Source of the DNA: a virus | Taxonomy: Duplodnaviria > Caudoviricetes | IMG/VR virus record: IMGVR_UViG_3300028591_000087 | Location: 129,103-193,102 of that record | Reading direction: 5' to 3' (one strand) | DNA length: 64,000 nucleotides | Shown here: positions 7,662 to 54,253 of the stretch, piece after piece | How positions within the stretch are numbered: position 1 is the stretch's first letter | How the letters are laid out: each line of letters starts with the position of its first letter | Position numbers and translations under genes: made by a program | Notes under the pieces: generated by a model | What the model was told of the DNA's origin: nothing | Databases searched by the model: none | Seen by the model: the letters and a program-made list of their open reading frames with translations, nothing else

Positions 7662-9398
7662 TCAAAAATCCCAAGATGATACTGTTTCGAAGAAATAATC
7701 AATAATCTTTATTTGCGGATATTCACCATTCCAGTCATTAATTTCGCAAGTACCAATAACTGTAATAGTTTTATCCAAAAGATTTTCATATTCTTCAATA
7801 TTACTACCAAACTTAATAATTGAAGTTTGTTTTGGTTTAAGATCTATTCTTAATGTGCCTTTTTGCAATAAATTAACCGCAATAGGATCACTTAGTTTTA
7901 TATGTTCAATTGCAACAATTGGTTCTGGAACGCCTTGACCCCACACATCTTTATAACGCGCAATATCAATAATTGTGGAATCAAAATCATCAGCCATTGT
8001 CCAAATAAAATCTACTTCGTATACTTTTTCAAAAATTGTTGTGCCGAAATCTTCTCTTACCTTATTTTTAAACCGCTCCAACCCATCAGGAGTAAAACTG
8101 ACGCCAAATGCCATAGCATGACCTTGAGCAAAAATGGCGCAGCCAGATTGAACAATATAATCACGCCAATTTCCAACCCCAGCAGTATTAAACCCTCTTC
8201 CGCTACCCAACCATCTAATTTCCCCAGTATCGCAATCCACGCATTGGTTAAGAATGAGGGTTGGCTTACTGTACGTAGCCATAATGCTGTTAGCAACAAG
8301 CCCAGTAATACCTCTAATAGGATCATCATCAGAAACTCCCTTGTTTTGAATAATAATTAATGGTTCATCAGCAAGTTTATATTTCTCAATTTTATCATAC
8401 ATTTCTTCAAGCAATTTCTTCTTTTCATCATCTTGATGACGTTTTACATTAGAAGCGTGTCGAACTGCTTGAACTACTCTAAGTTCTTCATCGTCTTTTT
8501 TAGCACCACGCTTATCACTTGGAATGAGTTGACCAGCTTTCCAAGAGAGCATAGATTCAAATACTAATAATTTATCTTCGTCACTACCAATACGGGTCAC
8601 CGCATTAATAAATGGAACAATATACCAGGCAACTGAATGCGGATTAAACTTACTTTTCATTGAAAATTCATTCTTATCCGCAAGATATACAAAGAATGGA
8701 TTGTTTACTTGCTTAAATCCTTCTGTTATATAATAATTAGTTTCTGGTGACCGCATATCCATCATATCACCGGTTAAACCGAGGGCAACGAGATCGAGGT
8801 AATATGATACGGCTCCTTCTTTTCGTTGTAGCCTATCCATACATTGTAAGGTCTTATATACCACACCAACTCCGGAGAGGGTTTTATTGGCATACCCAGA
8901 AAGCTGATTGTTGACAATAATCGCAGGATCGCCGGTAATATCTCTATCGGTTTCATGGTGGTCCAAAACGATGACATCCACTCCTCTCTCGGCAAGATTT
9001 TCATGTATCTCTCTTTCATTGCTGGAAGAATCTGGAGCGATAACCAATGTGCATCCTTCGGGAATATCATCAACGTTAATACCGTGAAGCTTCGCTTTGT
9101 GCAATCCATAATGCCAGTTTCGTTCCACTGTTGCTGGGGCGATGTCGTGCATATAGTTGAGCAACAGGGCTGAAGATGTGTATCCATCACAATCACTATC
9201 CACCTGTATATAAACTGTCTCTTGGCGCACGAGTGCTTTTAACATACGTCTCGCAGCCTGTTCTGTGTTATCTAAATCATAACAATCTAATTGATCATTT
9301 TCTGATGGATTCAAAAAATGCCAATCAGTATCTCTTAAATATAAAACACGGGATATAGGATCTAATCCTTCGCCGCCTTTTCTTAATTTAATCTCCAT
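7662..9398 (-). CDS. recJ: RecJ-like ssDNA exonuclease (DHH family)
   Basis: DSDCDG, LDHH, GSGRG, QGHAMAFG. Confidence 0.9.
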   Translation of the reverse strand: MEIKLRKGGEGLDPISRVLYLRDTDWHFLNPSENDQLDCYDLDNTEQAARRMLKALVRQETVYIQVDSDCDGYTSSALLLNYMHDIAPATVERNWHYGLHKAKLHGINVDDIPEGCTLVIAPDSSSNEREIHENLAERGVDVIVLDHHETDRDITGDPAIIVNNQLSGYANKTLSGVGVVYKTLQCMDRLQRKEGAVSYYLDLVALGLTGDMMDMRSPETNYYITEGFKQVNNPFFVYLADKNEFSMKSKFNPHSVAWYIVPFINAVTRIGSDEDKLLVFESMLSWKAGQLIPSDKRGAKKDDEELRVVQAVRHASNVKRHQDDEKKKLLEEMYDKIEKYKLADEPLIIIQNKGVSDDDPIRGITGLVANSIMATYSKPTLILNQCVDCDTGEIRWLGSGRGFNTAGVGNWRDYIVQSGCAIFAQGHAMAFGVSFTPDGLERFKNKVREDFGTTIFEKVYEVDFIWTMADDFDSTIIDIARYKDVWGQGVPEPIVAIEHIKLSDPIAVNLLQKGTLRIDLKPKQTSIIKFGSNIEEYENLLDKTITVIGTCEINDWNGEYPQIKIIDYFFETVSSWDF

Positions 9399-10501
9399 TA
9401 AACATTCACTCTATTCTTATACAATTCTTTAAATACATCTGGTCCTTTATCAATCGGACTATCTTTATATCCCAATTTGTTCTTCGTATCAAGTATAAAA
9501 CTTATATTGACAAATCCAGAGTATTTGAGATTGATCGCACGAAGGTTCTTAGTCCAATGCTCATATTCTGCATCACCTAACTTTTGATACTGTCTATCAA
9601 AAGCAATTATAATTTCCTTGGCTCCGCACTCAATCAATTTAGTTATTTGCCAGTAGCTAACTGCGCTACCACAACAAGCAACAGATATATCGCTATCTTT
9701 TCCGAAATAACTTCTATAAAGCAAACAGGATTTTTCTCCTTCAAATACGATTGCTTTATGAAATTTTCCTATATTTTGCTTACTATTGTTTAAGTTATAA
9801 AGATTTAATCCAAGAGGATGGTTATACATTTGTCCATTTAATATCATTGGACGATATTTACCATATAGTTCTGCTTCTTCTTTTCCAAGAGTACGACCAC
9901 GTAAACCAATAAATCCACCATTTTCATCGAAGTGCGGAATAGTTATCTGATCTGTTGATGGACAGAAACCAATCCACGCATCTTTGAGGATTTCATTGGT
10001 CATTCCCTCGTCCAACCAATCACCAATCCGAGGATAGCAAAGACGATCAAGAATATGATAATCATATGTTTTTAACTCAATTCTCTTTTGATCTTCTGGC
10101 AGGACTTTTATGCGTGCGTACTTATCGAAGACACCCATGTCTGGAAGTCCTCCAAAGTCATCTTCTGTGTCAATATATTCTCCAGAGATTCCGAATTTTT
10201 GGGCCACATATCTAACTCCGTTGTACAATGCCCATTCGGATCCTGGATTTGTAAGGTTATGGACTTTACATACCAATTCGAATATATCGAAGGTAGCATC
10301 GCAGCCAGTATAGCATCGAAACAGTCTTGTGTTTTCATAATAGTATAACTTATGGCTCCCTTCTCCTGGATGATTATGACAAATGGTGCCCGCAATAAAA
10401 CCAAATGATGTTTCTTGCGGGTCACCGCCGAAATCACGGACTAAATCTTCAACCATATCAGTAGTTAATTGTTCCTTGATTTCATCTTTGTCAAATTTCA
10501 T
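9398..10501 (-). CDS. DNA primase (Zn finger + TOPRIM)
   Basis: CHN..CYTGC Zn finger, GLRGR, VFEGEKS, AFDRQ; lies next to the DnaB-like helicase. Confidence 0.85.
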   Translation of the reverse strand: MKFDKDEIKEQLTTDMVEDLVRDFGGDPQETSFGFIAGTICHNHPGEGSHKLYYYENTRLFRCYTGCDATFDIFELVCKVHNLTNPGSEWALYNGVRYVAQKFGISGEYIDTEDDFGGLPDMGVFDKYARIKVLPEDQKRIELKTYDYHILDRLCYPRIGDWLDEGMTNEILKDAWIGFCPSTDQITIPHFDENGGFIGLRGRTLGKEEAELYGKYRPMILNGQMYNHPLGLNLYNLNNSKQNIGKFHKAIVFEGEKSCLLYRSYFGKDSDISVACCGSAVSYWQITKLIECGAKEIIIAFDRQYQKLGDAEYEHWTKNLRAINLKYSGFVNISFILDTKNKLGYKDSPIDKGPDVFKELYKNRVNV

Positions 10502-35198: not shown

Positions 35199-36707
35199 TT
35201 AGGCGTGAATCCGCTCGTAGCGTTCTCCACCAATCGCATCCATCATCAGATCCCAACCAGTCTTACCAGTTAAGATACTCTGGAAAATGGAAGGACTGAA
35301 ACCAGATACGTAAGATACGTAGTGGTTACCAATCATAGGAATGTTAGCCTGGCGAGCATCAACATTCCAATAGATCAGCTTAGGCATCTGGAATCCGTAG
35401 TTATTGAACTTGCGCTCAATGGTTTCCATTACAGATTCTGCATTGGCAGTACAGATACCACCAGTGTTATGCCAATAGTTATTAGTAGCATGGTCAAACT
35501 CCATATCAGAGATAACAATCATGTACTCAGGTAACTTTGCGCCGGTGCGGATAGCGGTATTCAATACAAGATCGAAAGCCGCTTCGATGTTGGTGTTTTC
35601 GCAAAGGTTCGTGCTAACAATGCGATATACCTTGTCGCAGAAGTCTACACCAGCAGTCTCAATCAGCTGAGGACGAGAACTGAAACTGATGTAGTGATTG
35701 TGCCAAGGACCCTGGTTACGTTCTGCGCAGTACAGACCAAGTGCCGTAGCAACATTGATAGGAGTACCGCTCATAGAGCCAGAGGTGTCGATCATACAAA
35801 GAGCATCCAGCTTGGCGCCCTTGAAATAATCGGTGAGGTTATCCCAGTACTTATTGATCATTAGACGATCAGTGTTATCAAGCGCAACTGTATTACGATC
35901 GTAGTACCAGGAAGGATGCATGAGGTTAATAGCCTTCTCAACAACCTCGTAAGGATAGAGTGCAGCTGCGTTAACCTTAGTGTTCTCGTCCTTTGCGAAC
36001 GCTTCATACTTCGCCTTGATCATATCGCGACGAGCGAAAGCATTCTTATAGATAAGACCAGCCTTGGAAGGGATCTTATCGAACTCAATCTCATCCCAGC
36101 GATTTGCAGACATCAGTACTTCAAGTACATTAATGCGCGCACGCATAATGGATAGAGTCTTACGATACTCCTTGTGGCTCATACCAAGATAACGACGAGT
36201 CTTGTCAGCCAAACGCTTGGTTTCGTTAGAGCTGGCATTCTCAGACTTCATCCACTTTGCGAGAAGGGAAGGAGTCTTACACTCCAAGTCAAGAGCGAGC
36301 TGTCTCTTGATAAATGCAAAAGCATCCCGTTCAAGAGGGGTATCACAAAGAGAATAGAGATCATCCCAACGGCCATATTCCGCAATATTCTCGATGTTCT
36401 TGCGGATAGACTCCCGCATCGTCTTATTGTTCGCCATATAGCGGATGACAACGCGGAAGAACCGACGCTCTCCCTGACCTCCGCGCACGTCGCGGATATA
36501 GAAAAGCATCTTCATAGCCAGCTCAGGATTCTCAGCATATGCCTTCTGGAACATCAAAATGACATCCTCATCAGAGCGATTGCGCATAGCTGCGCCCATA
36601 GCAAACATATCCAACAGATCACTATTGGTAGTCTTATGGGTAATTCCACCATTCTCCGTAAGGGTAAAGTTGGTAGCCTGCTTCATTCCATTAAGTAAAG
36701 TATTCAT
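35199..36707 (-). CDS. DUF2828-family Ro60/TROVE-like protein with C-terminal vWA domain
   Basis: TENG, FYIRDVRGGQGER, YGRWDDL, LAKW, DTSGSM (MIDAS), ISDMEFD, YWNV, VSGFS. Confidence 0.85.
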   Translation of the reverse strand: MNTLLNGMKQATNFTLTENGGITHKTTNSDLLDMFAMGAAMRNRSDEDVILMFQKAYAENPELAMKMLFYIRDVRGGQGERRFFRVVIRYMANNKTMRESIRKNIENIAEYGRWDDLYSLCDTPLERDAFAFIKRQLALDLECKTPSLLAKWMKSENASSNETKRLADKTRRYLGMSHKEYRKTLSIMRARINVLEVLMSANRWDEIEFDKIPSKAGLIYKNAFARRDMIKAKYEAFAKDENTKVNAAALYPYEVVEKAINLMHPSWYYDRNTVALDNTDRLMINKYWDNLTDYFKGAKLDALCMIDTSGSMSGTPINVATALGLYCAERNQGPWHNHYISFSSRPQLIETAGVDFCDKVYRIVSTNLCENTNIEAAFDLVLNTAIRTGAKLPEYMIVISDMEFDHATNNYWHNTGGICTANAESVMETIERKFNNYGFQMPKLIYWNVDARQANIPMIGNHYVSYVSGFSPSIFQSILTGKTGWDLMMDAIGGERYERIHA

Positions 36708-36774
36708 TCCTTTTTCTCTCCTTTTTATTTTTGGACAAGGCTTGGACAAGCCTTTCATTTCTTATTTCATATAT

Positions 36775-43557: not shown

Positions 43558-46302
43558 TTAATCGAAACAATCACCTACGTGATTGATTAATATTTCTCCA
43601 CCCAAAGCAGTCTGATAATCGTCAATACTGATCCAATCACTTGGCTGTTTAGGTTGAGGTTGATCAGCAGGAATTATAACACCAATATTATCCACACGAA
43701 TCCATACCACGCCATCATCGTCAACTTTTACATCAATAATATGTTCGACAATTTCTGGCGGTAAATCCGGAGGGATATCTGGCTTTTTAGGCGGATTTAT
43801 CGGTGGTTCAGGAGACGGTGGTGGAGGAGTACTCGGTTCAGGACTTGTAGTTACTGTCGGAGTAGGAGTTGGCTCAGGAGTAGGAGTCGGAGTCTCTGTT
43901 GGAACTTCACTCGGAGTAGGAGTTGTAGGTGGAATTAACTTATTCTCAAATACAAATTCCATGTCTTCTCCTGCAATATATTGAGTAATAGATTCATCAG
44001 AAACTAACTCATAACCTTCTGGAATATCAATTTCCTTGACAGTATATTTGCCCGCAGGTAAATCTTCAAGTAAAAGTTTACCCTCACCTTTTTGGTCTAC
44101 TGATACTTCAACGTACATAGTTTCTTCTAAACCATGGCCTGAAACTTCGAAGTAGAAAATTGCATTGCCATCCATATACTCATTATTATATACAACTTTT
44201 CTTATTGTGAAATTACAGTAAGAAATAGGTGTAGGGGTTGGAGTAGATGGAGTTGGAGTAGGAGTCTCTGTCGGTGTTGGAGTAGGCGTTGGGGTAGGTG
44301 TTTCAGTAGGAGTAGGTGTAGGTGTTTCAGTAGGAGTCTCAGATGGAGTTGGTGTAGGAGTAGGAGTTGGTGTCACAACAGCAGGAGGAGGAGTTGGAGT
44401 TGGTTTATTAGGCGGATCAATTTCATTGATTACGATAATATTACCTTCATCATCACGTTGAATTTCCTGTAACTTATAATTAGCAGTTGCAATTTCTTCA
44501 ACTTCAACCAATTCTTCTTCAAGTCTTTCAATAGTAACACTTTCATCCACACCAAGAAGATATGGAGTACCATTAATAACAATTGTAAACTTAGGCTCTG
44601 TCTTTCTTAAAACACCAGTGTGATGCCATACTTGATTACCATTCTGGCTGATCCAGAATAGACGTTCGCCTTCCTGCAAATGAATGTCACTAAACGGCAT
44701 TACATTAGAAGGAATAAAGACTTCATTAATCAAACGAGCAGTCATTTCATCATATGGATCTGTTGGATCATAAATTAATTGACCTTCTCCAACAGTCGCC
44801 AAATCCGCGGGTGCGCGATACATTACACTCGGTAAAGTACCACCTGTTGAGCCACTCTTTAATTGATAAAGGCTTACTGCGACGCCATTTTCATCTACAA
44901 ATAATACCCAATTTTCCCAATTGCCACAGTGATTAGAACGGTGACCTTCTTTACTGGTAAGATTCTTATAGTTAGATATATCAGCATACCAATATCCGCC
45001 ACCGGCTTTAAAGGTAGTATTATCCATTGTGTCACAACGAACTTGCCAGATTTCACCCTTTAATTTCTTTGTGACAGTAATTGGAGTTGGTGTAGGGGTA
45101 GGTGTCGGAGTTGGAGTAGGTGTAGGAGTTTCTGTCGGAGTTGCTGTTTCTGTTGGAGTTGGAGTAGGTCCAACAGTAGTTGGAGTTCCACCATTAATAT
45201 GGACCTCTGACCAATTCATATATACATTATTACCAACAACACTTACTCTATTATTTCCGTTTAGATTAATAGTAGAATTTGGCGCAATAATAAATCCGCA
45301 GATATCCATGACATCTACTGAACCAGCATCAGTCCAATAGGTAACATTAGAGCTACCAGAAGATTCATCACTACCTTCACACTGATAACGAGGGAATCCA
45401 TTACCACCGTGAATTACAGCCACACCATTTTCATTTGCGGGAACGTATATACAAGTCTCATCGTTATTTCCGAGTGCATTAAATACACTCTGCCAATAAC
45501 TTTTAGCAGAAGAAACTGCATCATCTGATAAGCCATAGTATGCGGTAGAGCTTTGCGCACTTGTACGTCCCTTAAATTGAATACTTGATTCGTTATTATA
45601 CACATAACTATCGTGCGCGCCAGATCCTCCAACAGATCCATCGTCAACACACATCCAGTTTTCGCCAGTTAATGTGCCACCAACCCATATAGATCCGCGC
45701 ACATGACTTTGTACTCTTGCATTATTTAATGCAATAATATTAAATTGGTTCATACTGTCAAGAGTAGGAGAATAATTACTGATCTCAATTGTTGGTTCAG
45801 TATTCTCTACTATTGGTGCTGGAGCTGCGAGCATTGCGCGCATTACTTGAGGTTCTTCGACCGGCTGAGCAACCTCCGGAGCAGAGGCAGGTTCTTCAAT
45901 TTGTGCAGGTGGATCAATTTGTTCTTGAACAATTGGTTGATCGACTACCACCTGCTGAACCTGGACAGACTGTTCTTCAATTACCTGTTGCTCTTTTTCT
46001 TGAACAGGTTCTTGAACAACTACCTGTTGCTCTTCTTTTGGCTCTTCGATTATATTGGTTTGTTCTTCGGTATTTTCTCCTAATACCTGTTGTGGAGCAT
46101 CTGCAATAATTTGATCTTCTTCGTTTGTAGTAGTCTCTTGTTGAGCAATAATGATTTCTGGCTCTTCATCTTGAATATTAACCATTTCTACTATTGAATA
46201 TGCAGAGGATTGAACTTCTTCTACTATTGTTTCAACAAAACCAATACCTGCTGTGCCAATTACAAGAATGAAAGCCATTAGAAATGCTAAAATTCGTTTC
46301 AT
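43558..46302 (-). CDS. Large secreted/surface protein (signal peptide, choice-of-anchor-A-like domain, PT linkers, SpaA-like Ig domain)
   Basis: HVRGSIWVGG, GFIIAPNS, (PT)n tracts, LPAGKYTVKEI..PEGYEL, C-terminus DDYQTALGGEILINHVGDCFD. Confidence 0.7.
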   Translation of the reverse strand: MKRILAFLMAFILVIGTAGIGFVETIVEEVQSSAYSIVEMVNIQDEEPEIIIAQQETTTNEEDQIIADAPQQVLGENTEEQTNIIEEPKEEQQVVVQEPVQEKEQQVIEEQSVQVQQVVVDQPIVQEQIDPPAQIEEPASAPEVAQPVEEPQVMRAMLAAPAPIVENTEPTIEISNYSPTLDSMNQFNIIALNNARVQSHVRGSIWVGGTLTGENWMCVDDGSVGGSGAHDSYVYNNESSIQFKGRTSAQSSTAYYGLSDDAVSSAKSYWQSVFNALGNNDETCIYVPANENGVAVIHGGNGFPRYQCEGSDESSGSSNVTYWTDAGSVDVMDICGFIIAPNSTINLNGNNRVSVVGNNVYMNWSEVHINGGTPTTVGPTPTPTETATPTETPTPTPTPTPTPTPTPITVTKKLKGEIWQVRCDTMDNTTFKAGGGYWYADISNYKNLTSKEGHRSNHCGNWENWVLFVDENGVAVSLYQLKSGSTGGTLPSVMYRAPADLATVGEGQLIYDPTDPYDEMTARLINEVFIPSNVMPFSDIHLQEGERLFWISQNGNQVWHHTGVLRKTEPKFTIVINGTPYLLGVDESVTIERLEEELVEVEEIATANYKLQEIQRDDEGNIIVINEIDPPNKPTPTPPPAVVTPTPTPTPTPSETPTETPTPTPTETPTPTPTPTPTETPTPTPSTPTPTPISYCNFTIRKVVYNNEYMDGNAIFYFEVSGHGLEETMYVEVSVDQKGEGKLLLEDLPAGKYTVKEIDIPEGYELVSDESITQYIAGEDMEFVFENKLIPPTTPTPSEVPTETPTPTPEPTPTPTVTTSPEPSTPPPPSPEPPINPPKKPDIPPDLPPEIVEHIIDVKVDDDGVVWIRVDNIGVIIPADQPQPKQPSDWISIDDYQTALGGEILINHVGDCFD
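44225..44405 (-). repeat. Pro-Thr coding repeat
   Basis: Hexamer-period PT linker; similar tracts near 43850-43930 and 45080-45190. Confidence 0.8.
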
Positions 46303-46351: not shown

Positions 46352-46798
46352 TTATCTGTAAAGTTGAAACTTTTTTGAGATCTTCCACGCAGTTTCATCA
46401 TCAAGAGGTCTAAATCCTATACAAGTTAGAGTATAGCCATGACCATTCTCATCGACTTCTTCTGGTTCAAGATCTGTAAGACAAGCGTCTTTTATAAGAA
46501 AGAAATCTTCACCTTCGCGCAAACCAAGTTCCTCAGCTATGGTTTTTGCTTTCATAAGCTGATTGTAATTTTTTGCTTCACAAACAGTTTTAGTAAAGAT
46601 TCCATTAAACCATTGTTCATATACATCTTTGCGCAAAATCAGATTAACTTCAACATAATCTGGAAGTGAACCACCTATAACATTTCCGCAGTCACGAATT
46701 TCATTTGATAAAAATGCTAAAGATGCGTGAGCTACTTGCGCGGATAGCTTTCCCGCACTCATGTTAAGATCTTTACGAGCGATAATTATCTGTCTCAT
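46352..46798 (-). CDS. pth2: Peptidyl-tRNA hydrolase, Pth2 family
   Basis: IARKDLNMSAGKLSAQVAHAS, IKDACLTD, TCIGFRP. Confidence 0.85.
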   Translation of the reverse strand: MRQIIIARKDLNMSAGKLSAQVAHASLAFLSNEIRDCGNVIGGSLPDYVEVNLILRKDVYEQWFNGIFTKTVCEAKNYNQLMKAKTIAEELGLREGEDFFLIKDACLTDLEPEEVDENGHGYTLTCIGFRPLDDETAWKISKKFQLYR

Positions 46799-47505: not shown

Positions 47506-47817
47506 TCAATTTTTTGGTATATAATTATAATTCAAATAATCACGCATCATGGCTGCTCCATAAGGACTTAATGGTTTAATCCGTTCCGCATGTTTAATAG
47601 AATCATTTACGTCATATTCAATACAAATAGCATGATCATTATATCTATCGTATATAAGACGTTGCTCTTGTATTGTCATATGTTTGGCTGGAGTTCTTAA
47701 CAAAACACTTATAATACCAATATCTGGATTCGCACGTAATTGATCAGGAGTCATGAAACCAAATTCGGAAGTTTCAGCTCCACGAGGAAAATCATGTTCA
47801 AACTGCTCCCAACTCAT
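47506..47817 (-). CDS. Hypothetical protein, last gene of the YcaO/rSAM operon
   Basis: Overlaps the rSAM stop; GGAG RBS. Confidence 0.55.
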   Translation of the reverse strand: MSWEQFEHDFPRGAETSEFGFMTPDQLRANPDIGIISVLLRTPAKHMTIQEQRLIYDRYNDHAICIEYDVNDSIKHAERIKPLSPYGAAMMRDYLNYNYIPKN

Positions 47818-49213
47818 CTAAGTTATCTCCCAATCTATCATTTATTAACAAAATTGTTCCAACTAAATCACTAAAGATCTTATTTGGTCCATATGCTTTT
47901 AAACAATCTATTATACCATGTTCTCTATAATACTTAAATATTGTAGAATATTTTGCTTTAAAGAACTTGCAAACGTTTTCTAATGGCATAAATGGATCTT
48001 TACCATATTCAGTTTGTGCGCCAAGACATCCATGTAAACAACATTCATTTATTGGACAAGCATCACATATTGGAGTTGTGGTCAAATTATTGCCCATCCA
48101 AATCTTTGTTGCTAAAATAGGATTAACTGCTTTAACTCCAGAAATTTCATCGTCTTCAACAGTGAAATAACCATATAAATATTGGTTATAAGCTGTTCTA
48201 TGACAAGGACAAATTGCTAAATCGCCTAACCGCACTGTTAAATGATCGGTTATTGTGCAACCAAGGAATGACTTACCAGTACCAATAAACCATGGGAAAT
48301 ATCCATTAGATTCATTAAATTCTCTCTTTAAGTGCGCGTTAGATATATAGTCAGCAAACTCTTGTGGATCATTGTTACATTTTTCTACCATCCAATTATT
48401 CATTAGCATTTTCAAAAATTCACAATAATCTTTAATAGATTCATCTGTCCAGTTTCCATCTCTCACTTCAAGCATCATAATAGAATCTGATGAATAATTA
48501 TATTTCTTTAAAAATTCCATCCACCATTGATAGTTTTCTTTCCAATACTTAACATTTTGTGAGGATACCATTGGATGGAATAAAAAGTCATTTACTCTTG
48601 CAAATGCGCCAACTCTATCATAAAATTCATCAGTATATTTGTTTTCTTTGTCGTTACGAGGGCGACCTGCTTCATCAACAATTTTACCATCAACTGATAC
48701 TGAAATACCAAGATAACAATCAAATAATTTATATTTATCTATGTACTGTTGCATTTTCTGTAATGCAATTTCTGAATTTACAAAACTACAATTTGATGGC
48801 AATGTGATACAATCAATCAAGACACCTTTTTCTAAGTATTTTAAGATCATATCCAATATATCCCATCCAAATTGAGACTGCCAAATATCTCCACTAAAAA
48901 TAGATACTTCTGGTATATGATAATTATTTATCATTAAATATTTTAATAATAATTCTAAGTTATGTAATATTAACTCAGGTTTGTTTACTTCTTTTGGATA
49001 TAATTCAGGATGTTTTTGTAAATAACAATATTCACACTTCTGATTACAAGTAGATGTTATATATAATTCTAAATTTGAGTCTAATCTTAATGACCTATCA
49101 TCAAGAAAATGAGTTGTAATATATTTCCAAGGATTGAAAAATCTATAATCTAACATCGTTTGCAATAGTTTGTCTTGTTCTAACTGATATTGATCTTTAT
49201 TTATATTTCCCAT
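47798..49213 (-). CDS. Radical SAM enzyme with SPASM domain
   Basis: CNQKCEYC, SVDG, GC..HLTVRLGDLAICPCHR, CDACPINECCLHGC..C. Confidence 0.9.
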   Translation of the reverse strand: MGNINKDQYQLEQDKLLQTMLDYRFFNPWKYITTHFLDDRSLRLDSNLELYITSTCNQKCEYCYLQKHPELYPKEVNKPELILHNLELLLKYLMINNYHIPEVSIFSGDIWQSQFGWDILDMILKYLEKGVLIDCITLPSNCSFVNSEIALQKMQQYIDKYKLFDCYLGISVSVDGKIVDEAGRPRNDKENKYTDEFYDRVGAFARVNDFLFHPMVSSQNVKYWKENYQWWMEFLKKYNYSSDSIMMLEVRDGNWTDESIKDYCEFLKMLMNNWMVEKCNNDPQEFADYISNAHLKREFNESNGYFPWFIGTGKSFLGCTITDHLTVRLGDLAICPCHRTAYNQYLYGYFTVEDDEISGVKAVNPILATKIWMGNNLTTTPICDACPINECCLHGCLGAQTEYGKDPFMPLENVCKFFKAKYSTIFKYYREHGIIDCLKAYGPNKIFSDLVGTILLINDRLGDNLDELGAV

Positions 49214-50562
49214 TATTTGGCATCCTCCGTAACTAAATACTTTAATGCACCATTCAGCAATAGAACATATAGATCGTTTGGTTCCATATAAAATGTTCCC
49301 AACATAGCATAATTAACTTTTATGCAAAAACATCCATTCGTTAAAACTTGTTTGGCTGCAAATAATGCTCGTTCTTCATCTAAATATTCAGGTTCAATTA
49401 ATCCTGCCATTGCAAGAGACATAATCTGAATCGTCGCTGTTGTCATTTGAACCGGTCTATCCGCATTTAAATATTCCATATGACGTTCATGCAAAGCATA
49501 CTCATCATCTGTCAAACACATTGGAGTAGGAGTTAATTCAAAGAACTTATTTAGATTAACCAATAGGTTCTCGTCTGAACGCTTGGCTGCATAGTCTTTA
49601 TATTTATCAACCAATAGAGTAAAACCTTCGTGACAAGCAGAAATCATATTATAAGGCAAAAAGCCCACCATTTGTCGACCAGTTCCGCAACGCGCGGTAT
49701 CACCGGTAAATGTGCGGCAAGTTGCACAAGATTTTCCGCTAAATGGAGTAATCAATTCATAATAATCAAAATATTTATAAACACGATTTTCACGTTCAAT
49801 TTCACGACACATTCTCATCAATTCTGCAAAATGTTTACCATCTGCTTGAGTAATTGGAGAAGGCATAGCCATATTCGGCACTGTACAAATAATTTTAATT
49901 TTATCATTATTAAGTGCGAATACTTTGCTCATGTATGCCGTTTCATAAAACTTATAATATTCAATTACTTTTTCTTTTGAATCTAACTTGTGAATTGTAT
50001 CAACATCCCAAGTTTGTTTAGGAGTCATAATTAATTCAACATTTTTTGGGAACTTACCTTCTTTTATAACATCTATTAACTTATCAAAATTTTCAATGCA
50101 CTTTTTAGTAACACCTTTACCACGATTAGCATCATTAATATATTCTGGTCCATCAATAGACAATTGTAAATAATAAGTAAATTCTCTTTCTGGATGTTGC
50201 GCAAATACATCCATTAATTCCATAAATTTATCTATCCAGCCATCAAATGCAAAGTTTGTAGAAGAGTGCATTTGCTTAAAATAAGGATAATGACCAATTA
50301 ATTTATGAATTAATGGTATTGCACGTTCCATATGAAGGAAAGGCTCTCCTCCCCATGTTTCAACTGATTTAAGCTGGTCTAAACGAGGAAAATATTCTTT
50401 GATTCTGTTGAAGTAATAATCTCCTTCAAAACTTTTTGCCAATTCATCATCAATATCTTTTAACGCAGGATTTTTATCAATAGTGCAGTAACGACAATTT
50501 AGATTACATATTCCGCACGTATACAGAATAACTATCTCGCGTTCTTTATTGAAATTAATCAT
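49213..50562 (-). CDS. Radical SAM enzyme (twitch/partial SPASM)
   Basis: CNLNCRYC, WGGEP, SIDGP...NRG, CATC, CGTG...SACH. Confidence 0.9.
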   Translation of the reverse strand: MINFNKEREIVILYTCGICNLNCRYCTIDKNPALKDIDDELAKSFEGDYYFNRIKEYFPRLDQLKSVETWGGEPFLHMERAIPLIHKLIGHYPYFKQMHSSTNFAFDGWIDKFMELMDVFAQHPEREFTYYLQLSIDGPEYINDANRGKGVTKKCIENFDKLIDVIKEGKFPKNVELIMTPKQTWDVDTIHKLDSKEKVIEYYKFYETAYMSKVFALNNDKIKIICTVPNMAMPSPITQADGKHFAELMRMCREIERENRVYKYFDYYELITPFSGKSCATCRTFTGDTARCGTGRQMVGFLPYNMISACHEGFTLLVDKYKDYAAKRSDENLLVNLNKFFELTPTPMCLTDDEYALHERHMEYLNADRPVQMTTATIQIMSLAMAGLIEPEYLDEERALFAAKQVLTNGCFCIKVNYAMLGTFYMEPNDLYVLLLNGALKYLVTEDAK

Positions 50563-50571
50563 AGAGTCTCC

Positions 50572-51345
50572 TTAAGTATTGTTTTTGTAAGCATTAGTAA
50601 TATCAATATATGTGGTATTTTTACAAGTGCCATAAGATGTGCAAGAACCATTTGCGCTGCAATCACCATTAGCACTACATGCGCCATTAGATGTACAACT
50701 ACCATTACCGTGATTAGTATTACCATGGTTTACATTCCAGTGATTACCATTACTATTGGTGCCATCACCACAAGTGCCATTCCATTTAGGAGTATTACCA
50801 TTCCAGCCATTAGATCCGCAACCATTAAAACTACGATCTCCCCAATGGGTACAAGATCCATTACCATTAGAACCATTACTATGGCTTCCATTGCCTTGTG
50901 CAGAATTATAATTTTGTCCATTACTCTTTTGAGAATGACTGTTATTACCATTACTATTGTTACTATAACTATTTTTACCATCAGCTTTTGAGCTATGCGC
51001 ATTAGTGCTATGGCTATTAAACGCATCATTTCTACATTTAACTTTAGAGAAATTGCCGATGGTTGTCTTGATATTCGTTAAATCTGAAGCTTCGATTAAG
51101 TCGCCAATCGCGGCGTTATTTGCGGCGATCCACCAAGCACTCTATGTTCCTAAGTATTTATCAGATTTAAACTCATTAACTTTTGTATTTAAGTTATTAA
51201 GTGCTGTGGCATATATCGTTGTGTTCTATGATGGAACTGATAAAGATGTTATAGAACCACCATAATTTGCAATGAAAGTATTAAATGAGCTATAAATACT
51301 TGCTATATCTTCTTGTAATATTTCATTGCCAGCAGTAATTGCCAT
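50572..51345 (-). CDS. 257-aa putative modification substrate with Asn/Gly/Ser/His-rich NGxC repeat C-terminus (2 TAG read as Gln)
   Basis: GAGGTGG RBS; frame open only under code 15; NGSCTS-NGACSA-NGDCSA-NGSCTS-YGTCKN; fills the YcaO-rSAM gap. Confidence 0.8.
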
Positions 51346-51359
51346 ATTTCCACCTCACT

Positions 51360-53138
51360 TTATCTATGATAATTATCAGTATACGTTTTAATTAATTCAT
51401 ATAAAGTATCACTGTTAAGATACTCTTGCATTGGTTCAATATAAATTTTTTGTAACAAATAAGCAGGAGATTGACATTTTACAATATCTTCTTCTGTAAT
51501 TTTATAATCAAATATCTCGTTAAAAATATGTAATAGTTCATCAAAAGAATATTTATTAGAATTTACATATCTTGCGAGTTGTATATATTTTTTATATGGT
51601 CTATATAATTCTGTATTTAATACATCATCAGGAATATTATCGTTTACTGCATCAATATTTAATAACTGTGTAAATGGACCAAATGATTGCTCACGAGACT
51701 CCATAAAAATATGATGCCACAATAACAGGCTATCAATAGTTCTAAATACTATCTGATCACTATTATATGCTAATATAGTATTAATATAATCAGAGAACTT
51801 TATAGGTTTGTGTTCATATAAATTGTTTAAAGTATTATATAAGCCTTCGATAGCAGTAATACATTTTGGAATTGAGATATCATCTTGGTCATAATTTCTA
51901 CCATTTAAGATAGAATATGTATGATAATCATCATTAGGTACGATTAAAGTATTTACCGCATATAAATTATCCATTAATGAAGTATTAATGTAATAGATTT
52001 TAATATTTAAATATTTACTTAATCTCTTATAATATTCAATTAAGTCTTCATTTGAACTTTCTTTCGGCATATAACCATTATGATTATATGTATCAACATA
52101 TTCGATGCTATTAAAAAATTCAGCTGGGAAAATTGTGCCATTAATACTATTTCCATATACACCGCGCATAAACTCTTCACTTACACTCTTGTATGGAGTT
52201 TGTGTTTGACAAGCCCAATTCTTACCACTAAATGATTGAATACCTTGATATAATTCTGTTAATACACGTTCTGCTGCAATCTCAAATACTGGGAATGATC
52301 CAAAATTAATTCTAATTGAACCATCTTTATTATCAATTAATAAGGACATCATAACAGGAATGTTATAATTATAAGAAAGATCAAACATATAGAACTTGTA
52401 TCCAAGTGCTTTAATCTTATTGATAACTTCTTTGAGATGAACATCTTCGATTTTTTCAAGATCAATAGCATAATGTGGTGCCTTGATATCTCGGTATAGA
52501 ATACGATCAGCTGCATCACGTTCAACTAATTCTGAAATAGCTTGAACTAATGCTTCATTTAATGTGTTGCCGGCAGCCATACCATTTGATCTTGTGATTA
52601 ACATTAACATGCGTGGATCAATGTAACTAACATCAGAATGATCTGCAATATTGTAAAGCGGAACTCCAACATATGTGCCATTAGTAATGAACTTAATCAT
52701 AGATCGCAATAGTTTAGGACTATATCCAGAAACTTTTTTGAAATAAACTTCAGATCTTGGATTCTTGAATAATTCTTCATAAGATAAAATTCTTTCATCT
52801 GGAGAAAAATAATAACCATGTTCAGTCTGGTTTATTTCCATAAACTTACGGGTCCATAGCGGATTAGTTAAAAACATAATTTTATTACAGAAACGTTCAT
52901 AAAGTTCCGCATGACCACTAGCTAAAGCATATTCTTTTGTCATGCCTTTACCATTTGCGCCACCGAAATATATTCCATCTTTAAATAATTCAACTCTGCA
53001 AAACCAAGTCCCAGCTTCAGATTCTAATACTGGCTATGCATCTCTTAATTCAAATTTATGTTCTTTAAAAAAATCTTTAACTATTTGTACCGTCTGATTT
53101 GGATCTCTTTCTTTGTAATGAGTATTTAAACTTACCAT
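51360..53138 (-). CDS. YcaO-family enzyme (TAG at codon 35 read as Gln)
   Basis: HYKERDP, ANGKGMTKEYALASGHAELYER, SNGMAAGNTLNEALVQAISELVERD, AAERVLTELYQG; GGAGG RBS at 53138. Confidence 0.9.
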
Positions 53139-53164
53139 ATAAACCTCCATGGTTTAATTAAATT

Positions 53165-53253
53165 TGGCAGCCCGCCTGGGAGTCGAACCCAGTCCGTTTG
53201 CTTCAGAGGCCGCGGTTTTAGAGACCGCCCGTGCAGCCGCACACCTACGGGCT
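53165..53253 (-). tRNA. Amber suppressor tRNA (CUA), probably Gln
   Basis: GCGGT CTCTAAA ACCGC; T arm CTGGG TTCGACT CCCAG; acceptor AGCCCGT/GCGGGCT-G-CCA. Confidence 0.85.
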
Positions 53254-53453
53254 ATGTTTATCTTATATATAAATAATATCAAAAAAAATATAGTCCGTCA
53301 ACCTAATTATATTGTAATTTTCAATAGGACAATTATCATATATTACCCAATTTCAGGAAAAACAAAGATAGACGCGCGAATGGCATCCCGCACTAAAAAA
53401 TCTGAAGTTTCAAAATCATTTCCCGCGTGTCGACCCTCTGCGATCGGACCAGA

Positions 53454-54119
53454 TTATCCTCCCCATTCTTCCAGATCTTCATACTCCATATCTGCCAATT
53501 CTTCTTCATCCAAATTGTCAACATCACAATAAGTAGCTTTACATTTACAAGCGGGCACGAAGTGAGCATGGCCATGTTCATCTATATACCAACGTGCTGG
53601 ATGATATGGTGGAAGCGTATATTTATCTATTCCAACACGATATGTACCAAAGTGTTGTGAACATCCTTGTCCACATGCTGCTTCGCCATATATTATTACA
53701 AATTCAAATAAATCCAACTTTTGAACCAATTCATCAAAAGTAGTAATTGGTAAACGTTGTGCTTCGGTTGCCACAATCGCGGTTAGTGCATTTATTAAAT
53801 TAGATTTATTGCGCCATTTATTATAAGCATCAAAATGATTTTTAATACTACTGTGTAAAGTCCATCCATCTTCATGATATAATAATGAATCTAAAGATGA
53901 AAAATTTCTAAATGCTGAATCTTTAACATTATAGTGTTTTTTAATCCAGTCTTTAATTATGGATAATGCTCGTTCTAATATATCTCTAATCAACACTTCT
54001 ACATCTTCCATTTTTAAATTAGTTTCATGTAAAATATAATCAGATAATTCTTTCATATCATTTAAAATAATTGGAAAAATTTTATAGATTAAATCATTAA
54101 ATTCAGTAGTACTAACCAT
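53454..54119 (-). CDS. Possible MuF/SPP1 gp7-like head morphogenesis protein
   Basis: IVATE..R, CGQGC, LPPYHP...CKC with an insertion. Confidence 0.45.
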   Translation of the reverse strand: MVSTTEFNDLIYKIFPIILNDMKELSDYILHETNLKMEDVEVLIRDILERALSIIKDWIKKHYNVKDSAFRNFSSLDSLLYHEDGWTLHSSIKNHFDAYNKWRNKSNLINALTAIVATEAQRLPITTFDELVQKLDLFEFVIIYGEAACGQGCSQHFGTYRVGIDKYTLPPYHPARWYIDEHGHAHFVPACKCKATYCDVDNLDEEELADMEYEDLEEWGG

Positions 54120-54179
54120 TATAATTCCTCCGTAAATAACAAAATGGCCAGATCCAGTTAATCTCGGATCTGGCAATAG

Positions 54180-54253
54180 TACCTGCGGGTGGATTCGAAC
54201 CACCGACCTATGGGGTATGAGTCCATTGCTCTAACCACCTGAGCTACACAGGC
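54180..54253 (-). tRNA. tRNA-Met(CAU), elongator (or Ile2)
   Basis: Loop CTCATAC. Confidence 0.85.

What the first reader, a model, noticed from the sequence alone, without database searches (positions are those of the whole stretch)
47506..53253. Phage-encoded RiPP-like operon: suppressor tRNA, YcaO, NGxC-repeat substrate and two radical SAM enzymes, gated by amber recoding
Seen: a tightly packed minus-strand unit of tRNA(CUA), YcaO (592 aa, TAG at codon 35), a hidden 257-aa ORF (50572-51345, TAG at codons 40 and 68), an rSAM, an rSAM-SPASM and a 103-aa ORF. The hidden protein has an ordinary N-terminal ~100 aa and then a ~140-aa Asn/Gly/Ser/His-rich tail with 9 Cys, ending NGSCTS-NGACSA-NGDCSA-NGSCTS-YGTCKN, plus WNG motifs. 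Known: YcaO enzymes activate backbone amides (azolines, amidines, thioamides), and SPASM rSAMs install thioether or C-C crosslinks or epimerisations in peptides. No E1-like partner, TfuA, dehydrogenase, protease or exporter is evident in the operon. Inference: this is a dedicated post-translational modification system acting on a repeat protein, possibly a virion fibre rather than a secreted peptide. Standard gene calling misses the substrate, and it can only be made once TAG is suppressed.
Basis: partly seen in the sequence, partly recalled or inferred. Interest (0 to 1): 0.88.

Follow-up and report, generated by a model that had tools for sequence, protein, structure and literature searches.

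The report
Phage repeat protein with radical-SAM maturases
A large phage that reads the TAG stop codon as glutamine carries a hidden, fast-evolving Asn/Gly/Ser/Cys-rich protein that is always encoded just before the same two radical SAM enzymes and a small partner protein, which points to an undescribed phage system that chemically modifies one of its own proteins.

Summary
On the minus strand lie tRNA(CUA), YcaO, a 257-aa ORF hidden by two TAGs, two radical SAM genes and a 103-aa ORF, all tightly packed.

The core is four genes: repeat protein (Rep), a twitch-like rSAM_A, a SPASM-type rSAM_B and a small protein. rSAM_A was followed by rSAM_B in all 22 distinct loci. A Rep N-domain lay directly upstream in 19, and the two others I inspected had divergent Rep-like ORFs. 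Rep has a conserved ~110-aa helical N-domain ending in an invariant Cys-Arg-Asn, a hypervariable tail predicted disordered, and a conserved C-terminal xIDIx[N/C] motif.

YcaO is optional (8 of 22 loci), as are GT2 and GT8 glycosyltransferases, so they look like tailoring enzymes.

TAG is Gln. TAG makes up 27% of Gln codons in Rep, 23% in YcaO and about 5% in the rSAMs. A long-armed tRNA(CUA) abuts the cassette in five loci. Amber gating is therefore a trend, not a rule.

The closest published analogue is the bacterial HXS system (HxsABCD). The architecture matches, but sequence membership tests fail.

The chemistry and the product's role remain unknown.

This scan noted the same family before on other DNA (e1-5751933, e1-5751951) and at this contig's other end (e1-5746694).

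The parts
53273..53301 (-). Promoter-like site (TTGACG-17-TATTAT with TG), about 20 nt upstream of the tRNA(CUA). It is a possible start of the transcription unit.
   Evidence: It is the top-scoring minus-strand hit. The scan as a whole is not above chance (48 found against 44.8 expected), so this is only suggestive. A terminator-like hairpin at 53374-53393 precedes it.
53165..53253 (-). Suppressor tRNA(CUA), 89 nt. It has a tRNA-Gln-like acceptor stem, discriminator G73 and an encoded CCA. It also has an unusual ~19-nt variable arm carrying a conserved YUGAAG motif.
   Evidence: Found by ARAGORN. Its acceptor stem matches the phage's own tRNA-Gln(UUG). The only Rfam match is tRNA-Sec at 34.9 bits, below the gathering score. 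A homologous long-armed CUA tRNA lies within 130 nt upstream of the cassette in L096, L097 and L099/L112, and about 40 nt downstream of it in copy 2.
51360..53150 (-). YcaO (596 aa, one TAG). It resembles the stand-alone E. coli YcaO and is an accessory tailoring enzyme of the cassette.
   Evidence: PF02624 at 137.6 bits. The best solved relative is E. coli YcaO 4q84, E 4.8e-20, with the Ser/Glu/Glu, E..ER and ER..TE nucleotide-binding motifs aligned. Homologous YcaOs are present in only 8 of 22 related loci, either upstream or downstream.
50572..51345 (-). Rep257, the hidden repeat protein (TAG at codons 40 and 68) and presumed substrate.
   Evidence: The family has 113 cluster representatives. 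It has no Pfam, NCBIfam or PHROG match.
51010..51345 (-). Rep N-domain (residues 1-112). It is a predicted helical bundle and the candidate recognition (leader-like) domain.
   Evidence: AlphaFold2 pLDDT of about 77 over residues 11-111. No specific fold match: Foldseek E >= 0.014 and best VIA Z 6.7, which is unspecific for a helical bundle.
51028..51036 (-). Cys104-Arg105-Asn106 junction motif. It is the most conserved feature of the whole protein and a candidate modification or processing site.
   Evidence: C104 and N106 are invariant and R105 is at least 90% conserved across 52 diverse homologues.
50614..51009 (-). Hypervariable Asn/Ser/Gly/Thr/His/Cys-rich tail (residues 113-244), containing six NxxC motifs and several WNG/H-x-N motifs.
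   Evidence: pLDDT below 35. Family-wide tail composition is N 16, S 14, G 12, T 12, C 7 and H 5%. Tails hold 0-42 Cys and have a median net charge of +4.
50575..50613 (-). Conserved C-terminal motif (T-Y-I-D-I-T-N-A-..). The family consensus is T-x-I-D-I-x-[N/C]-x-x-T-K-x-N.
49213..50562 (-). rSAM_A (449 aa, no TAG). It is a radical SAM enzyme with a twitch-like C-terminal half.
   Evidence: C19/C23/C26 plus C155, C292, C310 and C413 are invariant in 64 homologues. The best NCBIfam hits are GggB and N_Twi_rSAM, far below their cut-offs. There are 316 clusters at 90% identity, all metagenomic and unnamed.
47798..49213 (-). rSAM_B (471 aa, no TAG). It is a radical SAM enzyme with a canonical SPASM domain.
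   Evidence: It carries C56/C60/C63, then C319-x10-G-x4-C335-x-C337, C383-x2-C386-x5-C392-x3-C396 and C415, all invariant in 5 homologues. The best NCBIfam hit is PapB over its full length at 32-39 bits (cut-off 340). Its SPASM region matches CteB 5wgg at E 0.007.
47506..47817 (-). Small protein (103 aa) whose gene overlaps the 3' end of rSAM_B. It occupies the position that HxsD holds in HXS.
   Evidence: It is conserved after rSAM_B in most cassettes, including copy 2. The AlphaFold2 model is only moderate (pLDDT 61) and has no fold match (best Z 3.5).

Best explanation
This is a phage-borne protein maturation module with four core genes: Rep, rSAM_A, rSAM_B and a small protein.

Inferred mechanism:
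- The two radical SAM enzymes are one twitch-like enzyme and one full SPASM enzyme of the peptide-crosslinking class. They covalently modify Rep, most probably in its disordered Asn/Ser/Gly/Thr/His/Cys-rich tail. Candidate reactions are Cys-to-carbon thioethers, as made by NxxcB, PapB and QhpD, and/or aromatic-to-Asn carbon-carbon links.
- The conserved helical N-domain, the invariant Cys-Arg-Asn junction and the C-terminal xIDIx[N/C] motif act as the constant handles the enzymes recognise. The tail between them is free to diversify.
- The small protein is an accessory partner of the enzymes, in the way HxsD partners HxsC.
- In this window the E. coli-type YcaO is an optional ATP-dependent tailoring enzyme acting on the same protein. 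Other phages carry GT2/GT8 glycosyltransferases in that role.
- In this lineage the cassette is often headed by the amber-suppressor tRNA, and Rep and YcaO are rich in TAG while the rSAMs are poor in it. The enzymes can therefore be made before the substrate.

What is shown and what is inferred: the genes, their families, the conserved linkage, the conservation pattern of Rep and TAG = Gln are shown. That Rep is the substrate, the type of chemistry, and the role of the product are inferred. My best guess for the product is an intracellular or virion-associated effector in phage-host or phage-phage conflict.
For: 1. Linkage. rSAM_A is followed directly by rSAM_B in all 22 distinct loci examined. 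A Rep N-domain lies immediately upstream in 19. Of the three remaining loci I inspected L106 and L110, and both have divergent Rep-like ORFs. This holds whether the search started from Rep or from rSAM_A, down to 30% Rep identity and 38% rSAM identity.
2. Rep shows the RiPP-like pattern of constant recognition parts and a hypervariable middle. C104 and N106 are invariant, and the C-terminal motif is conserved.
3. Both enzymes carry the radical SAM cluster motif plus conserved auxiliary-cluster cysteines. Their nearest curated families are peptide- and protein-crosslinking maturases: GggB, DynA, YhhB, CcpM, PapB and QhpD.
4. The variable accessory enzymes (YcaO, GT2, GT8) sit inside or beside the cassette, as tailoring genes do in biosynthetic clusters.
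5. The genes are tightly packed and some overlap.
6. There is published precedent for two rSAMs plus a small protein maturing a repeat-protein effector: HXS, PMC13128918. There is also precedent for rSAM Asn-Cys beta-thioethers at NxxC, PMC9389541.
7. TAG usage is 41/150 Gln codons in Rep, 26/115 in YcaO, 12/327 in rSAM_A and 17/310 in rSAM_B. The suppressor tRNA abuts the cassette in five distinct loci.
Against: - There is no biochemical or proteomic evidence. The chemistry cannot be read from sequence.
- The rSAMs score far below every curated family cut-off, so analogy to thioether or cyclophane formers is weak.
- Cys is not universal in the tails (0-42; one member has none), and NxxC is confined to a subgroup. 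A single Cys-based chemistry therefore cannot explain the whole family.
- No recognition (RRE/PqqD-like) domain is detectable in either enzyme or in the small protein.
- The cassette always sits among tRNA genes, next to other translation-related genes. This leaves open an RNA- or ribosome-directed role for the enzymes.
- TAG bias counts come from related sequences and are not independent. There are clear exceptions (L007, L097, L014, L100).
Confidence: 0.7

Rival explanations
1. This is a classical RiPP cluster. The N-domain is a leader that is cut off, and the tail, or pieces of it, is released as a small modified antimicrobial peptide when the phage lyses the cell.
For: Rep has a conserved N-terminal part and a hypervariable C-terminal part. 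The enzymes belong to the SPASM/twitch class. YcaO and glycosyltransferases are common RiPP tailoring enzymes. The invariant Cys-Arg-Asn at the junction could mark a cleavage site. Lysis would make an exporter unnecessary.
Against: No protease or exporter is present in any locus examined. Tails are 60-450 aa, far longer than RiPP cores. The extreme C-terminus is conserved, which is unusual for a core peptide. No RRE domain was detected.
Confidence: 0.12
2. Rep is a virion component, such as a fibre, whisker or decoration protein. The rSAM crosslinks harden its tail, and the N-domain anchors it to the particle.
For: Fibre- or adhesin-like genes lie near some cassettes. These are p914 with a SpaA-type domain in this window, a Laminin_G_3 protein in L014, and in L106 two large upstream ORFs whose N-termini looked tail-fibre-like to me from memory, with no family search run. 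Hypervariable tips are typical of host-recognition proteins. Rep is TAG-rich, and by my recollection of the literature TAG-rich genes in recoded phages are often late genes. I did not read the stop-codon recoding preprint found.
Against: In this genome the cassette lies in the replication and tRNA region with DNA polymerase, topoisomerase, helicase and PhoH, not in a structural module. TAG also occurs in PhoH and a homing endonuclease here. There is no PHROG or BFVD structural match. The tail is predicted disordered.
Confidence: 0.2
3. The linkage to Rep is incidental. The rSAMs and the E. coli-type YcaO act on the translation apparatus, meaning tRNA, rRNA or a ribosomal protein, as YcaO assists RimO on protein S12. 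Rep is an unmodified low-complexity or disulfide-rich protein.
For: The cassette is embedded in the tRNA array in 16 of 22 loci. It sits next to peptidyl-tRNA hydrolase PTH2 and a Ro60-like RNA-binding protein. The best curated hit for YcaO is the S12 methylthiotransferase accessory factor model. Cys spacing of six residues in this Rep recalls disulfide beta-helices, which is a comparison from memory.
Against: The order Rep-rSAM_A-rSAM_B is strict, with 9-nt and overlapping junctions, across very divergent phages. The enzymes resemble peptide maturases, not MiaB/RimO methylthiotransferases or known RNA-modifying rSAMs. YcaO scores 105 bits against a 700-bit cut-off for the S12 model and is absent from most cassettes. 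The tRNA arrays of these phages also hold homing endonucleases and other accessory genes, so the location may only mark a plastic region.
Confidence: 0.08

Closest known systems
HXS anti-phage system (HxsA repeat effector, HxsB and HxsC radical SAM enzymes, HxsD small protein; Li et al., Nat Commun 2026, PMC13128918)
   Same: Both are four-gene modules with two adjacent radical SAM enzymes, a small accessory protein and a repeat-bearing protein that is the matured product rather than a short peptide. Both have tails rich in His/Ser-type motifs and a slightly basic net charge.
   Different: The gene order differs: Rep-A-B-small here, D-B-C-A in HXS. The rSAMs score only 12-22 bits on the HxsB and HxsC models (cut-offs 370 and 268). 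Rep and the small protein have no Hxs hit. I saw no signal peptide by eye and no peptidoglycan-binding domain in the family scans. The tail is hypervariable and much longer. The system is phage-encoded, not a bacterial defence island. Tailoring YcaO/GT genes are added.
Radical SAM/SPASM peptide crosslinking maturases (PapB ranthipeptide, NxxcB Asn-Cys beta-thioether, CteB/SCIFF, cyclophane formers XyeB/YhhB/DynA)
   Same: rSAM_B has the full SPASM cysteine pattern and aligns end to end with the PapB model. This Rep carries six NxxC motifs, and NxxC is the motif that NxxcB crosslinks (PMC9389541). Aromatic-x-Asn triplets are also present.
   Different: All scores are far below family cut-offs. 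There is no RRE domain. The substrate is a 170-560-aa protein with a folded N-domain. NxxC and Cys are not conserved across the family.
QhpD/QhpC (quinohemoprotein amine dehydrogenase gamma-subunit maturation)
   Same: An rSAM/SPASM enzyme installs several Cys thioether crosslinks in a protein subunit rather than in a secreted peptide. This is stated from my general knowledge of the family and was not checked in a paper here. rSAM_B homologues give weak hits to the QhpD model (E 1e-3 to 3.5e-6).
   Different: There is no dehydrogenase context here. The substrate family is unrelated and hypervariable.
E. coli YcaO (stand-alone YcaO that assists the rSAM enzyme RimO on ribosomal protein S12; PDB 4q84)
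   Same: It is the closest solved relative of the phage YcaO (E 4.8e-20). The two are of similar length, and the nucleotide-binding motifs are conserved. It is a YcaO working alongside a radical SAM enzyme on a protein.
   Different: The phage YcaO scores 105 bits against a 700-bit equivalog cut-off. The neighbouring rSAMs are not methylthiotransferases. The phage YcaO is optional in the cassette.
Proteusins / NHLP- and Nif11-leader RiPPs
   Same: Both have a large, conserved N-terminal leader-like domain (about 100 aa), followed by a variable Asn/Gly-rich region that radical SAM enzymes modify. The proteusin features are given from my general knowledge of the class.
   Different: There is no sequence relation. 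The tail is several-fold longer. The C-terminus is conserved. There is no protease or exporter.

Membership tests
Radical SAM superfamily | CxxxCxxC motif for the SAM-binding [4Fe-4S] cluster | tested here: met
   rSAM_A has C19/C23/C26, invariant in 64 sequences. rSAM_B has C56/C60/C63, invariant in 5. Pfam PF04055 hits are below the gathering score at 23.3 and 18.6 bits against 29.5.
SPASM-domain rSAM enzymes | C-terminal seven- or eight-Cys pattern (Cx9-15Gx4C ... Cx2Cx5Cx3C ... C) for two auxiliary clusters | tested here: met
   rSAM_B has C319-x10-G-x4-C335, C337, C383-x2-C386-x5-C392-x3-C396 and C415, all invariant. The TIGR04085 domain HMM gives only 14.5-16 bits against a cut-off of 27. 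rSAM_A lacks this pattern and has four other invariant Cys, so it is twitch-like.
HXS system (HxsABCD) | HxsB equivalog (TIGR03978, cut-off 370 bits) | tested here: not met
   Best scores are 12.7-21.8 bits among the window, L007 and L011 enzymes.
HXS system (HxsABCD) | HxsC equivalog (TIGR03977, cut-off 267.9 bits) | tested here: not met
   The best score is 15.6 bits, from L011 rSAM_A. The window enzymes give no hit.
HXS system (HxsABCD) | [quoted passage not shown] | tested here: not met
   Rep has no NCBIfam or Pfam hit at E <= 10. By eye the N-terminus (MAITAGNEILQEDIASIY..) has no hydrophobic signal-like stretch, but no signal-peptide predictor was run. H-x-S/N triplets occur but are not the organising repeat.
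HXS system (HxsABCD) | Architecture of two adjacent rSAM genes plus a small protein plus a repeat protein | tested here: met
   This architecture is conserved in the window, copy 2, L003, L007, L011, L016, L096-L099, L103, L105 and L109. The gene order differs from D-B-C-A.
HXS system (HxsABCD) | Physical complex between an rSAM enzyme and the small protein (HxsC-HxsD) | not testable with these tools
   It needs a pull-down or co-purification experiment.
YcaO superfamily | YcaO ATP-binding domain (PF02624) | tested here: met
   137.6 bits against 25.7. The motifs align with E. coli YcaO 4q84.
Azoline-forming (TOMM) YcaO cyclodehydratase | SagD-type domain score, an E1-like/Ocin-ThiF partner, a dehydrogenase and a C-terminal Pro-rich motif | tested here: not met
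   TIGR03604 gives 60.9 bits against a cut-off of 219. No partner or dehydrogenase gene appears in the cassette or in related loci. The C-terminus ends ..TYTDNYHR.
YcaO accessory factor for S12 methylthiotransferase (NF040716) | Equivalog score of 700 bits and partnership with RimO | tested here: not met
   105 bits. The neighbouring rSAMs gave no MiaB/RimO-family hit in the NCBIfam lists.
PapB-family ranthipeptide maturase (NF047865) | Equivalog score of 340 bits | tested here: not met
   32-39 bits, although aligned over nearly the whole model.
Classical RiPP biosynthetic cluster | Short precursor with a cleavable leader, an RRE recognition domain, and a leader protease and/or exporter | tested here: not met
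   The precursor is 170-560 aa. No PqqD/RRE hit was found in the enzymes or the small protein. No protease or transporter was found in any locus.
Genetic code 15 (TAG = Gln) | In-frame TAG codons align with conserved Gln in homologues, and a suppressor tRNA(CUA) is present | tested here: met
   TAG falls in columns that are 75-100% Gln in YcaO and rSAM_B alignments of phages with the same long-armed tRNA. No column is Ser-conserved. The tRNA acceptor stem and G73 match the phage tRNA-Gln.

The most novel reading that the evidence does not exclude
The module may be a phage-side counterpart of HXS-type systems. In this reading a phage manufactures a radical-SAM-crosslinked, and sometimes YcaO- or glycosyl-tailored, hypervariable protein effector and uses it in conflict. 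Possible uses are excluding competing phages, blocking a host defence or nuclease, or arming the virion. The operon would be timed by its own amber-suppressor tRNA, so that TAG-free maturases accumulate before the TAG-rich substrate can be translated. This would be a new class of viral post-translationally modified protein, with a built-in order of expression based on the genetic code.
Probability: 0.25. Interest if true: 0.88.

Novelty: new variant of a known kind. Interest (0 to 1): 0.72.

Why it matters
Radical SAM maturation is known for small secreted peptides and, since 2026, for one bacterial anti-phage effector (HXS).

Here a whole lineage of roughly 130-200-kb uncultured phages carries a dedicated two-enzyme maturation module for one of its own proteins. 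rSAM_A alone forms 316 sequence clusters, and none comes from a named or cultured phage. The protein diversifies extremely fast between fixed ends.

- If the modification is confirmed, it adds a protein family, two enzyme subfamilies and probably new crosslink chemistry on Asn/Ser/Gly/Cys-rich sequence.
- It would show that phages use RiPP-like chemistry on full-size proteins.
- The TAG bias and the suppressor tRNA at the head of the operon offer a concrete, testable case of stop-codon recoding ordering enzyme and substrate synthesis.
- Standard gene calling misses the substrate in recoded phages, so such systems are under-counted.

Tried and rejected
- Complex prediction with Rep, either rSAM_B plus small protein plus Rep N-domain, or rSAM_A plus Rep N-domain. 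Locus-derived sequences were not accepted. The later refusals, together, suggest the TAG-read Rep is not accepted either. I did not pursue it.
- The one job that ran, rSAM_B with the 103-aa protein and no alignments, returned 'no answer' with score 0.00. This is evidence neither for nor against binding.
For the small protein it gave no usable lead.
I therefore have no environment, expression or read-depth data, and read laying was not used.

Searches that found nothing specific:
- Fold searches for the Rep N-domain gave nothing specific: Foldseek PDB and BFVD, and VIA wide with best Z 6.7 on generic helical bundles. The small protein's best Z was 3.5.
- PDB sequence and profile searches for the rSAMs returned only a CteB SPASM match at E 0.007.
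- GenBank phages (INPHARED) hold no relative of Rep or rSAM_A. For YcaO they hold only a host-like copy in an E. coli prophage record.
- The first IMG/VR scan, with YcaO alone, found nothing.
- Four of my literature searches, on phage RiPP, YcaO, SPASM and recoding terms, found no description of this system.

Ideas considered and rejected:
- TAG = Ser because of the long variable arm and G73. Rejected.
- NxxC as the defining motif of the family. Rejected.
- p249/p207 as part of the core. It is not conserved in other loci.
- rSAM_A and rSAM_B as recent paralogues. hhalign gives probability 16% and matches only the cluster-binding region.

Full report
**What is in the window.** ARAGORN finds 36 tRNA genes on the minus strand between 42.9 and 63.9 kb. 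One is an 89-nt tRNA with anticodon CUA at 53165-53253. Reading TAG as a sense codon gives a continuous minus-strand series:
- YcaO, 51360-53150, one TAG.
- A 257-aa ORF, 50572-51345, with TAG at codons 40 and 68. I call it Rep257.
- A 449-aa radical SAM gene, 49213-50562 (rSAM_A).
- A 471-aa radical SAM gene, 47798-49213 (rSAM_B).
- A small ORF. Its homologues begin at the MSW.. methionine, so the true product is the 103-aa table-11 ORF at 47506-47817.

The spacers are 14 and 9 nt, followed by two overlaps.

**Families.**
- YcaO is a clear PF02624 member at 137.6 bits. Its nearest solved relative is the stand-alone E. coli YcaO, 4q84, with the nucleotide-binding motifs aligned. It fails the curated cut-offs for the S12-accessory, TOMM and McrA-thioamidation subfamilies.
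- rSAM_A and rSAM_B both carry CxxxCxxC.
- rSAM_B has the complete SPASM cysteine pattern, invariant in five homologues. It aligns end to end with the PapB ranthipeptide maturase model, but at only 32-39 bits.
- rSAM_A has four further invariant Cys in 64 homologues and is twitch-like.
- Neither enzyme has a solved relative by sequence beyond a CteB SPASM match at E 0.007.
- Rep257 and the small protein match nothing in Pfam, NCBIfam or PHROGs.

**Rep is a real and widespread family.** A full HMMER scan with residues 1-112 finds 113 cluster representatives. With rare exceptions (one repeat protein, P0106), the match lies at the N-terminus and is followed by 60-320 residues of very different sequence. 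The tails are built from short degenerate units, for example CSHSSHSQS, CCNTNSTNGN, CGNGNHGQG and SNGxx. Often there is an aromatic-rich patch in the middle.

Over 77 members the tails are 16% Asn, 14% Ser, 12% Gly, 12% Thr, 7% Cys and 5% His. Cys counts run from 0 to 42, and the median net charge is +4. Nearly all tails end in T-x-I-D-I-x-[N/C]-..-T-K-x-N.

Across 52 diverse members the only invariant residues after Met1 are Cys104 and Asn106, and Arg105 is at least 90% conserved. They sit exactly at the junction of domain and tail.

AlphaFold2 models the N-domain as a helical bundle (pLDDT about 77) and the tail as disordered (below 35). No fold search gave a specific match. Constant ends with a hypervariable middle is the logic of leader/core precursors.

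I examined 22 distinct loci, reached in three ways:
- Starting from Rep homologues.
- Starting from rSAM_A homologues.
- From IMG/VR and species-genome scans scored with my own HMMs.

The results were:
- rSAM_A is followed directly by rSAM_B in all 22.
- A Rep N-domain lies immediately upstream in 19.
- The three others are L106, the nearly identical L107/L108, and L110. I inspected L106 and L110. Both have an upstream ORF of the same build with a diverged N-domain: an N-domain, then a Cys/Asn/Ser/Thr-rich repeat tail.
- The small protein follows rSAM_B in most loci. It is detectably homologous across them (MSW..FP.G ... PLN.YG...).

The core is therefore four genes. rSAM_A alone has 316 clusters at 90% identity. 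All are metagenomic and unnamed, on contigs up to 185 kb. GenBank phages contain none.

**YcaO and other accessories.** A homologous YcaO (33-50% identity over the full length) is present in 8 of 22 loci.
- It is upstream of Rep here and in L003 (two tandem copies), L016, L096, L097 and L100. The partial locus L010, which is not among the 22, shows the same arrangement.
- It is downstream, next to glycosyltransferases, in L007 and L109.
- It is absent elsewhere.

GT2 genes occur in 8 loci and GT8 in 2. This presence-and-absence pattern is what tailoring enzymes show. It also supports the view that Rep is the object of the chemistry, because Asn/Ser/Thr/Cys-rich tails are natural glycosylation targets.

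**The suppressor tRNA and 'amber gating'.** The tRNA(CUA) has the same acceptor stem top and G73 discriminator as the phage's tRNA-Gln(UUG). It also has a 14-19-nt variable arm with a conserved YUGAAG motif, shared by seven phage tRNAs. Rfam sees it only as a sub-threshold tRNA-Sec match.

A long arm plus G73 could suggest serine, so I checked the meaning of TAG. In phages with this tRNA, TAG falls in columns that are 75-100% Gln in the YcaO and rSAM_B alignments, and never in Ser-conserved columns. TAG is therefore Gln.

The tRNA lies 14-16 nt upstream of YcaO here and in L096 and L097. It lies about 130 nt upstream of Rep in L099/L112, and about 40 nt after the last cassette gene in copy 2. 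It is 1.5-3.3 kb away in L098 and L015. A well-placed promoter-like site precedes it here, but the scan overall is at chance level.

Summed over non-duplicate loci, TAG supplies 41 of 150 Gln-type codons in Rep and 26 of 115 in YcaO. It supplies only 12 of 327 in rSAM_A and 17 of 310 in rSAM_B. In this window the counts are 2/6, 1/17, 0/10 and 0/16.

This is a real tendency, and it fits enzymes being translatable before the substrate. It is not a rule: the L007 and L097 rSAMs are TAG-rich, and the L014 and L100 Rep genes have no TAG. The sequences are also related, so the counts are not independent.

**Context.**
- The cassette sits inside the phage tRNA array in 16 of 22 loci.
- In this window it is on the same strand as the replication genes: DNA polymerase, topoisomerase II, helicase, RecJ and PhoH. 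It is near PTH2 and a Ro60-like protein, not in a structural module.
- These arrays also hold homing endonucleases and other accessory genes, so the location may simply mark a plastic region.
- Fibre- or adhesin-like genes lie near some cassettes: p914 here, a Laminin_G_3 protein in L014, and two fibre-like ORFs in L106. This keeps a virion role open.

**A second copy.** The first 19.6 kb of the 193,102-bp contig is collinear with the last 20.1 kb at 65-95% nucleotide identity, and the homology runs to both contig ends. That region carries a second cassette: Rep559 with nine TAGs, rSAM_A' at 47% identity, rSAM_B' at 48%, a small protein, a 93-nt tRNA(CUA), and no YcaO.

This is either a diverged tandem duplication broken by the assembler, or a walk through two strain variants of one locus. 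I cannot tell which without reads. A related IMG/VR genome does carry two different cassettes 36 kb apart (L105 and L107), so true paralogy exists in the lineage.

**Comparison with what is known.**
HxsB and HxsC (rSAMs) with HxsD (small; binds HxsC) mature HxsA. HxsA is a repeat-bearing effector that gains a +8 Da modification and blocks phage DNA entry.
- The architecture here is the same kind, but membership fails. HxsB and HxsC model scores are 12-22 bits against cut-offs of 370 and 268. Rep and the small protein have no Hxs hit. I saw no signal peptide by eye and no peptidoglycan-binding domain in the family scans, and the gene order differs.
- The NxxC motifs of this particular Rep match the motif crosslinked by NxxcB (Asn beta-carbon to Cys sulfur; PMC9389541). 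They are not conserved in the family.
- Distant rSAM_A/rSAM_B pairs (23-25% identity) also occur in a Peptococcaceae, a Saccharibacteria and a Nanohalarchaeota MAG contig. The last two have acidic Cys/Ser/Asp/Tyr-rich ORFs upstream. The enzyme pair is therefore older and wider than this phage lineage.

**Verdict.** The unit is real, and its reading as a protein-modification system is well supported by conserved linkage. The core is Rep plus two rSAMs plus a small protein. YcaO and the suppressor tRNA are lineage-specific additions. The chemistry and the biological role are not known. I found no paper describing it. The same family was noted earlier by this scan on other DNA.

Noticed in passing
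window 53165-53253 (-); also L013 4496-4588, L015 337-425, L096 3757-3844, L097 4074-4162, L098 4728-4815, L099 5527-5617: These are amber-suppressor tRNA(CUA) genes of 88-93 nt with a tRNA-Gln-like body. Each has a 14-19-nt variable-arm insertion carrying a conserved YUGAAG motif. A related phage (L011) has an ordinary 75-nt version. TAG still reads as Gln. The purpose of the conserved extra arm is unexplained.
   Followed up: partly
G000:C1 1-19611 versus 172958-193102 (window 43856-64000): The two ends of the 193-kb contig are collinear, diverged copies (65-95% nt identity) of the same ~20-kb block: p914, PTH2, tRNAs, cassette and tRNA array. The homology runs to both contig termini. This is either a real tandem duplication or an assembly path through two strain variants.
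   Followed up: partly
window 53454-54203 (-) and L013 9679-10302 (-): A 249-aa protein and its 207-aa paralogue (40% identity) lie just upstream of both cassettes. They have a Cys/His-rich C-terminal part (..C..C....G....PP.H...) and no family hit. They are not conserved beside the cassette in other phages.
   Followed up: partly
window 46352-46798 (-) and 43558-46302 (-): A PTH2-type peptidyl-tRNA hydrolase (72.9 bits) lies just downstream of the cassette. Next to it is a 914-aa protein with Thr/Pro-rich linkers and a SpaA-type prealbumin domain. Both are duplicated at the other contig end (72% and 64% identity).
   Followed up: no
L003 1-2591 and 6560-7378: A close relative of the cassette has two tandem YcaO genes upstream of Rep. 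It also has a third radical SAM gene (CxxxCxxC, cut by the contig end) two genes after the small protein.
   Followed up: no
L018 5309-8710 (Saccharibacteria MAG contig); L019 1367-4705 (Nanohalarchaeota MAG contig): Distant homologues of the rSAM_A/rSAM_B pair (23% identity, full length) follow acidic Cys/Ser/Asp/Tyr/Asn-rich low-complexity ORFs. In L019 two such ORFs start with an MAFTWNED..G..I...D motif reminiscent of the Rep N-terminus. In L018 another rSAM with an HxsB-like N-terminus lies upstream.
   Followed up: partly
window 35199-36758 (-): A 519-aa protein matches phrog_850 'RNA-binding protein' (E 9e-126). This is presumably the Ro60-like DUF2828 protein that another first-reader note links to small RNAs in the tRNA array.
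   Followed up: no
L016 (contig CAZBVO010000015.1, labelled uncultured Faecalibacterium MAG): A complete YcaO-Rep-rSAM_A-rSAM_B-small-GT2 cassette (45% rSAM_A identity) lies on a 35-kb contig binned with a Faecalibacterium genome. rSAM_B appears interrupted by about 1 kb (hits at 7367-7582 and 8594-9787). This may be a host hint or a mis-binned phage contig.
   Followed up: no
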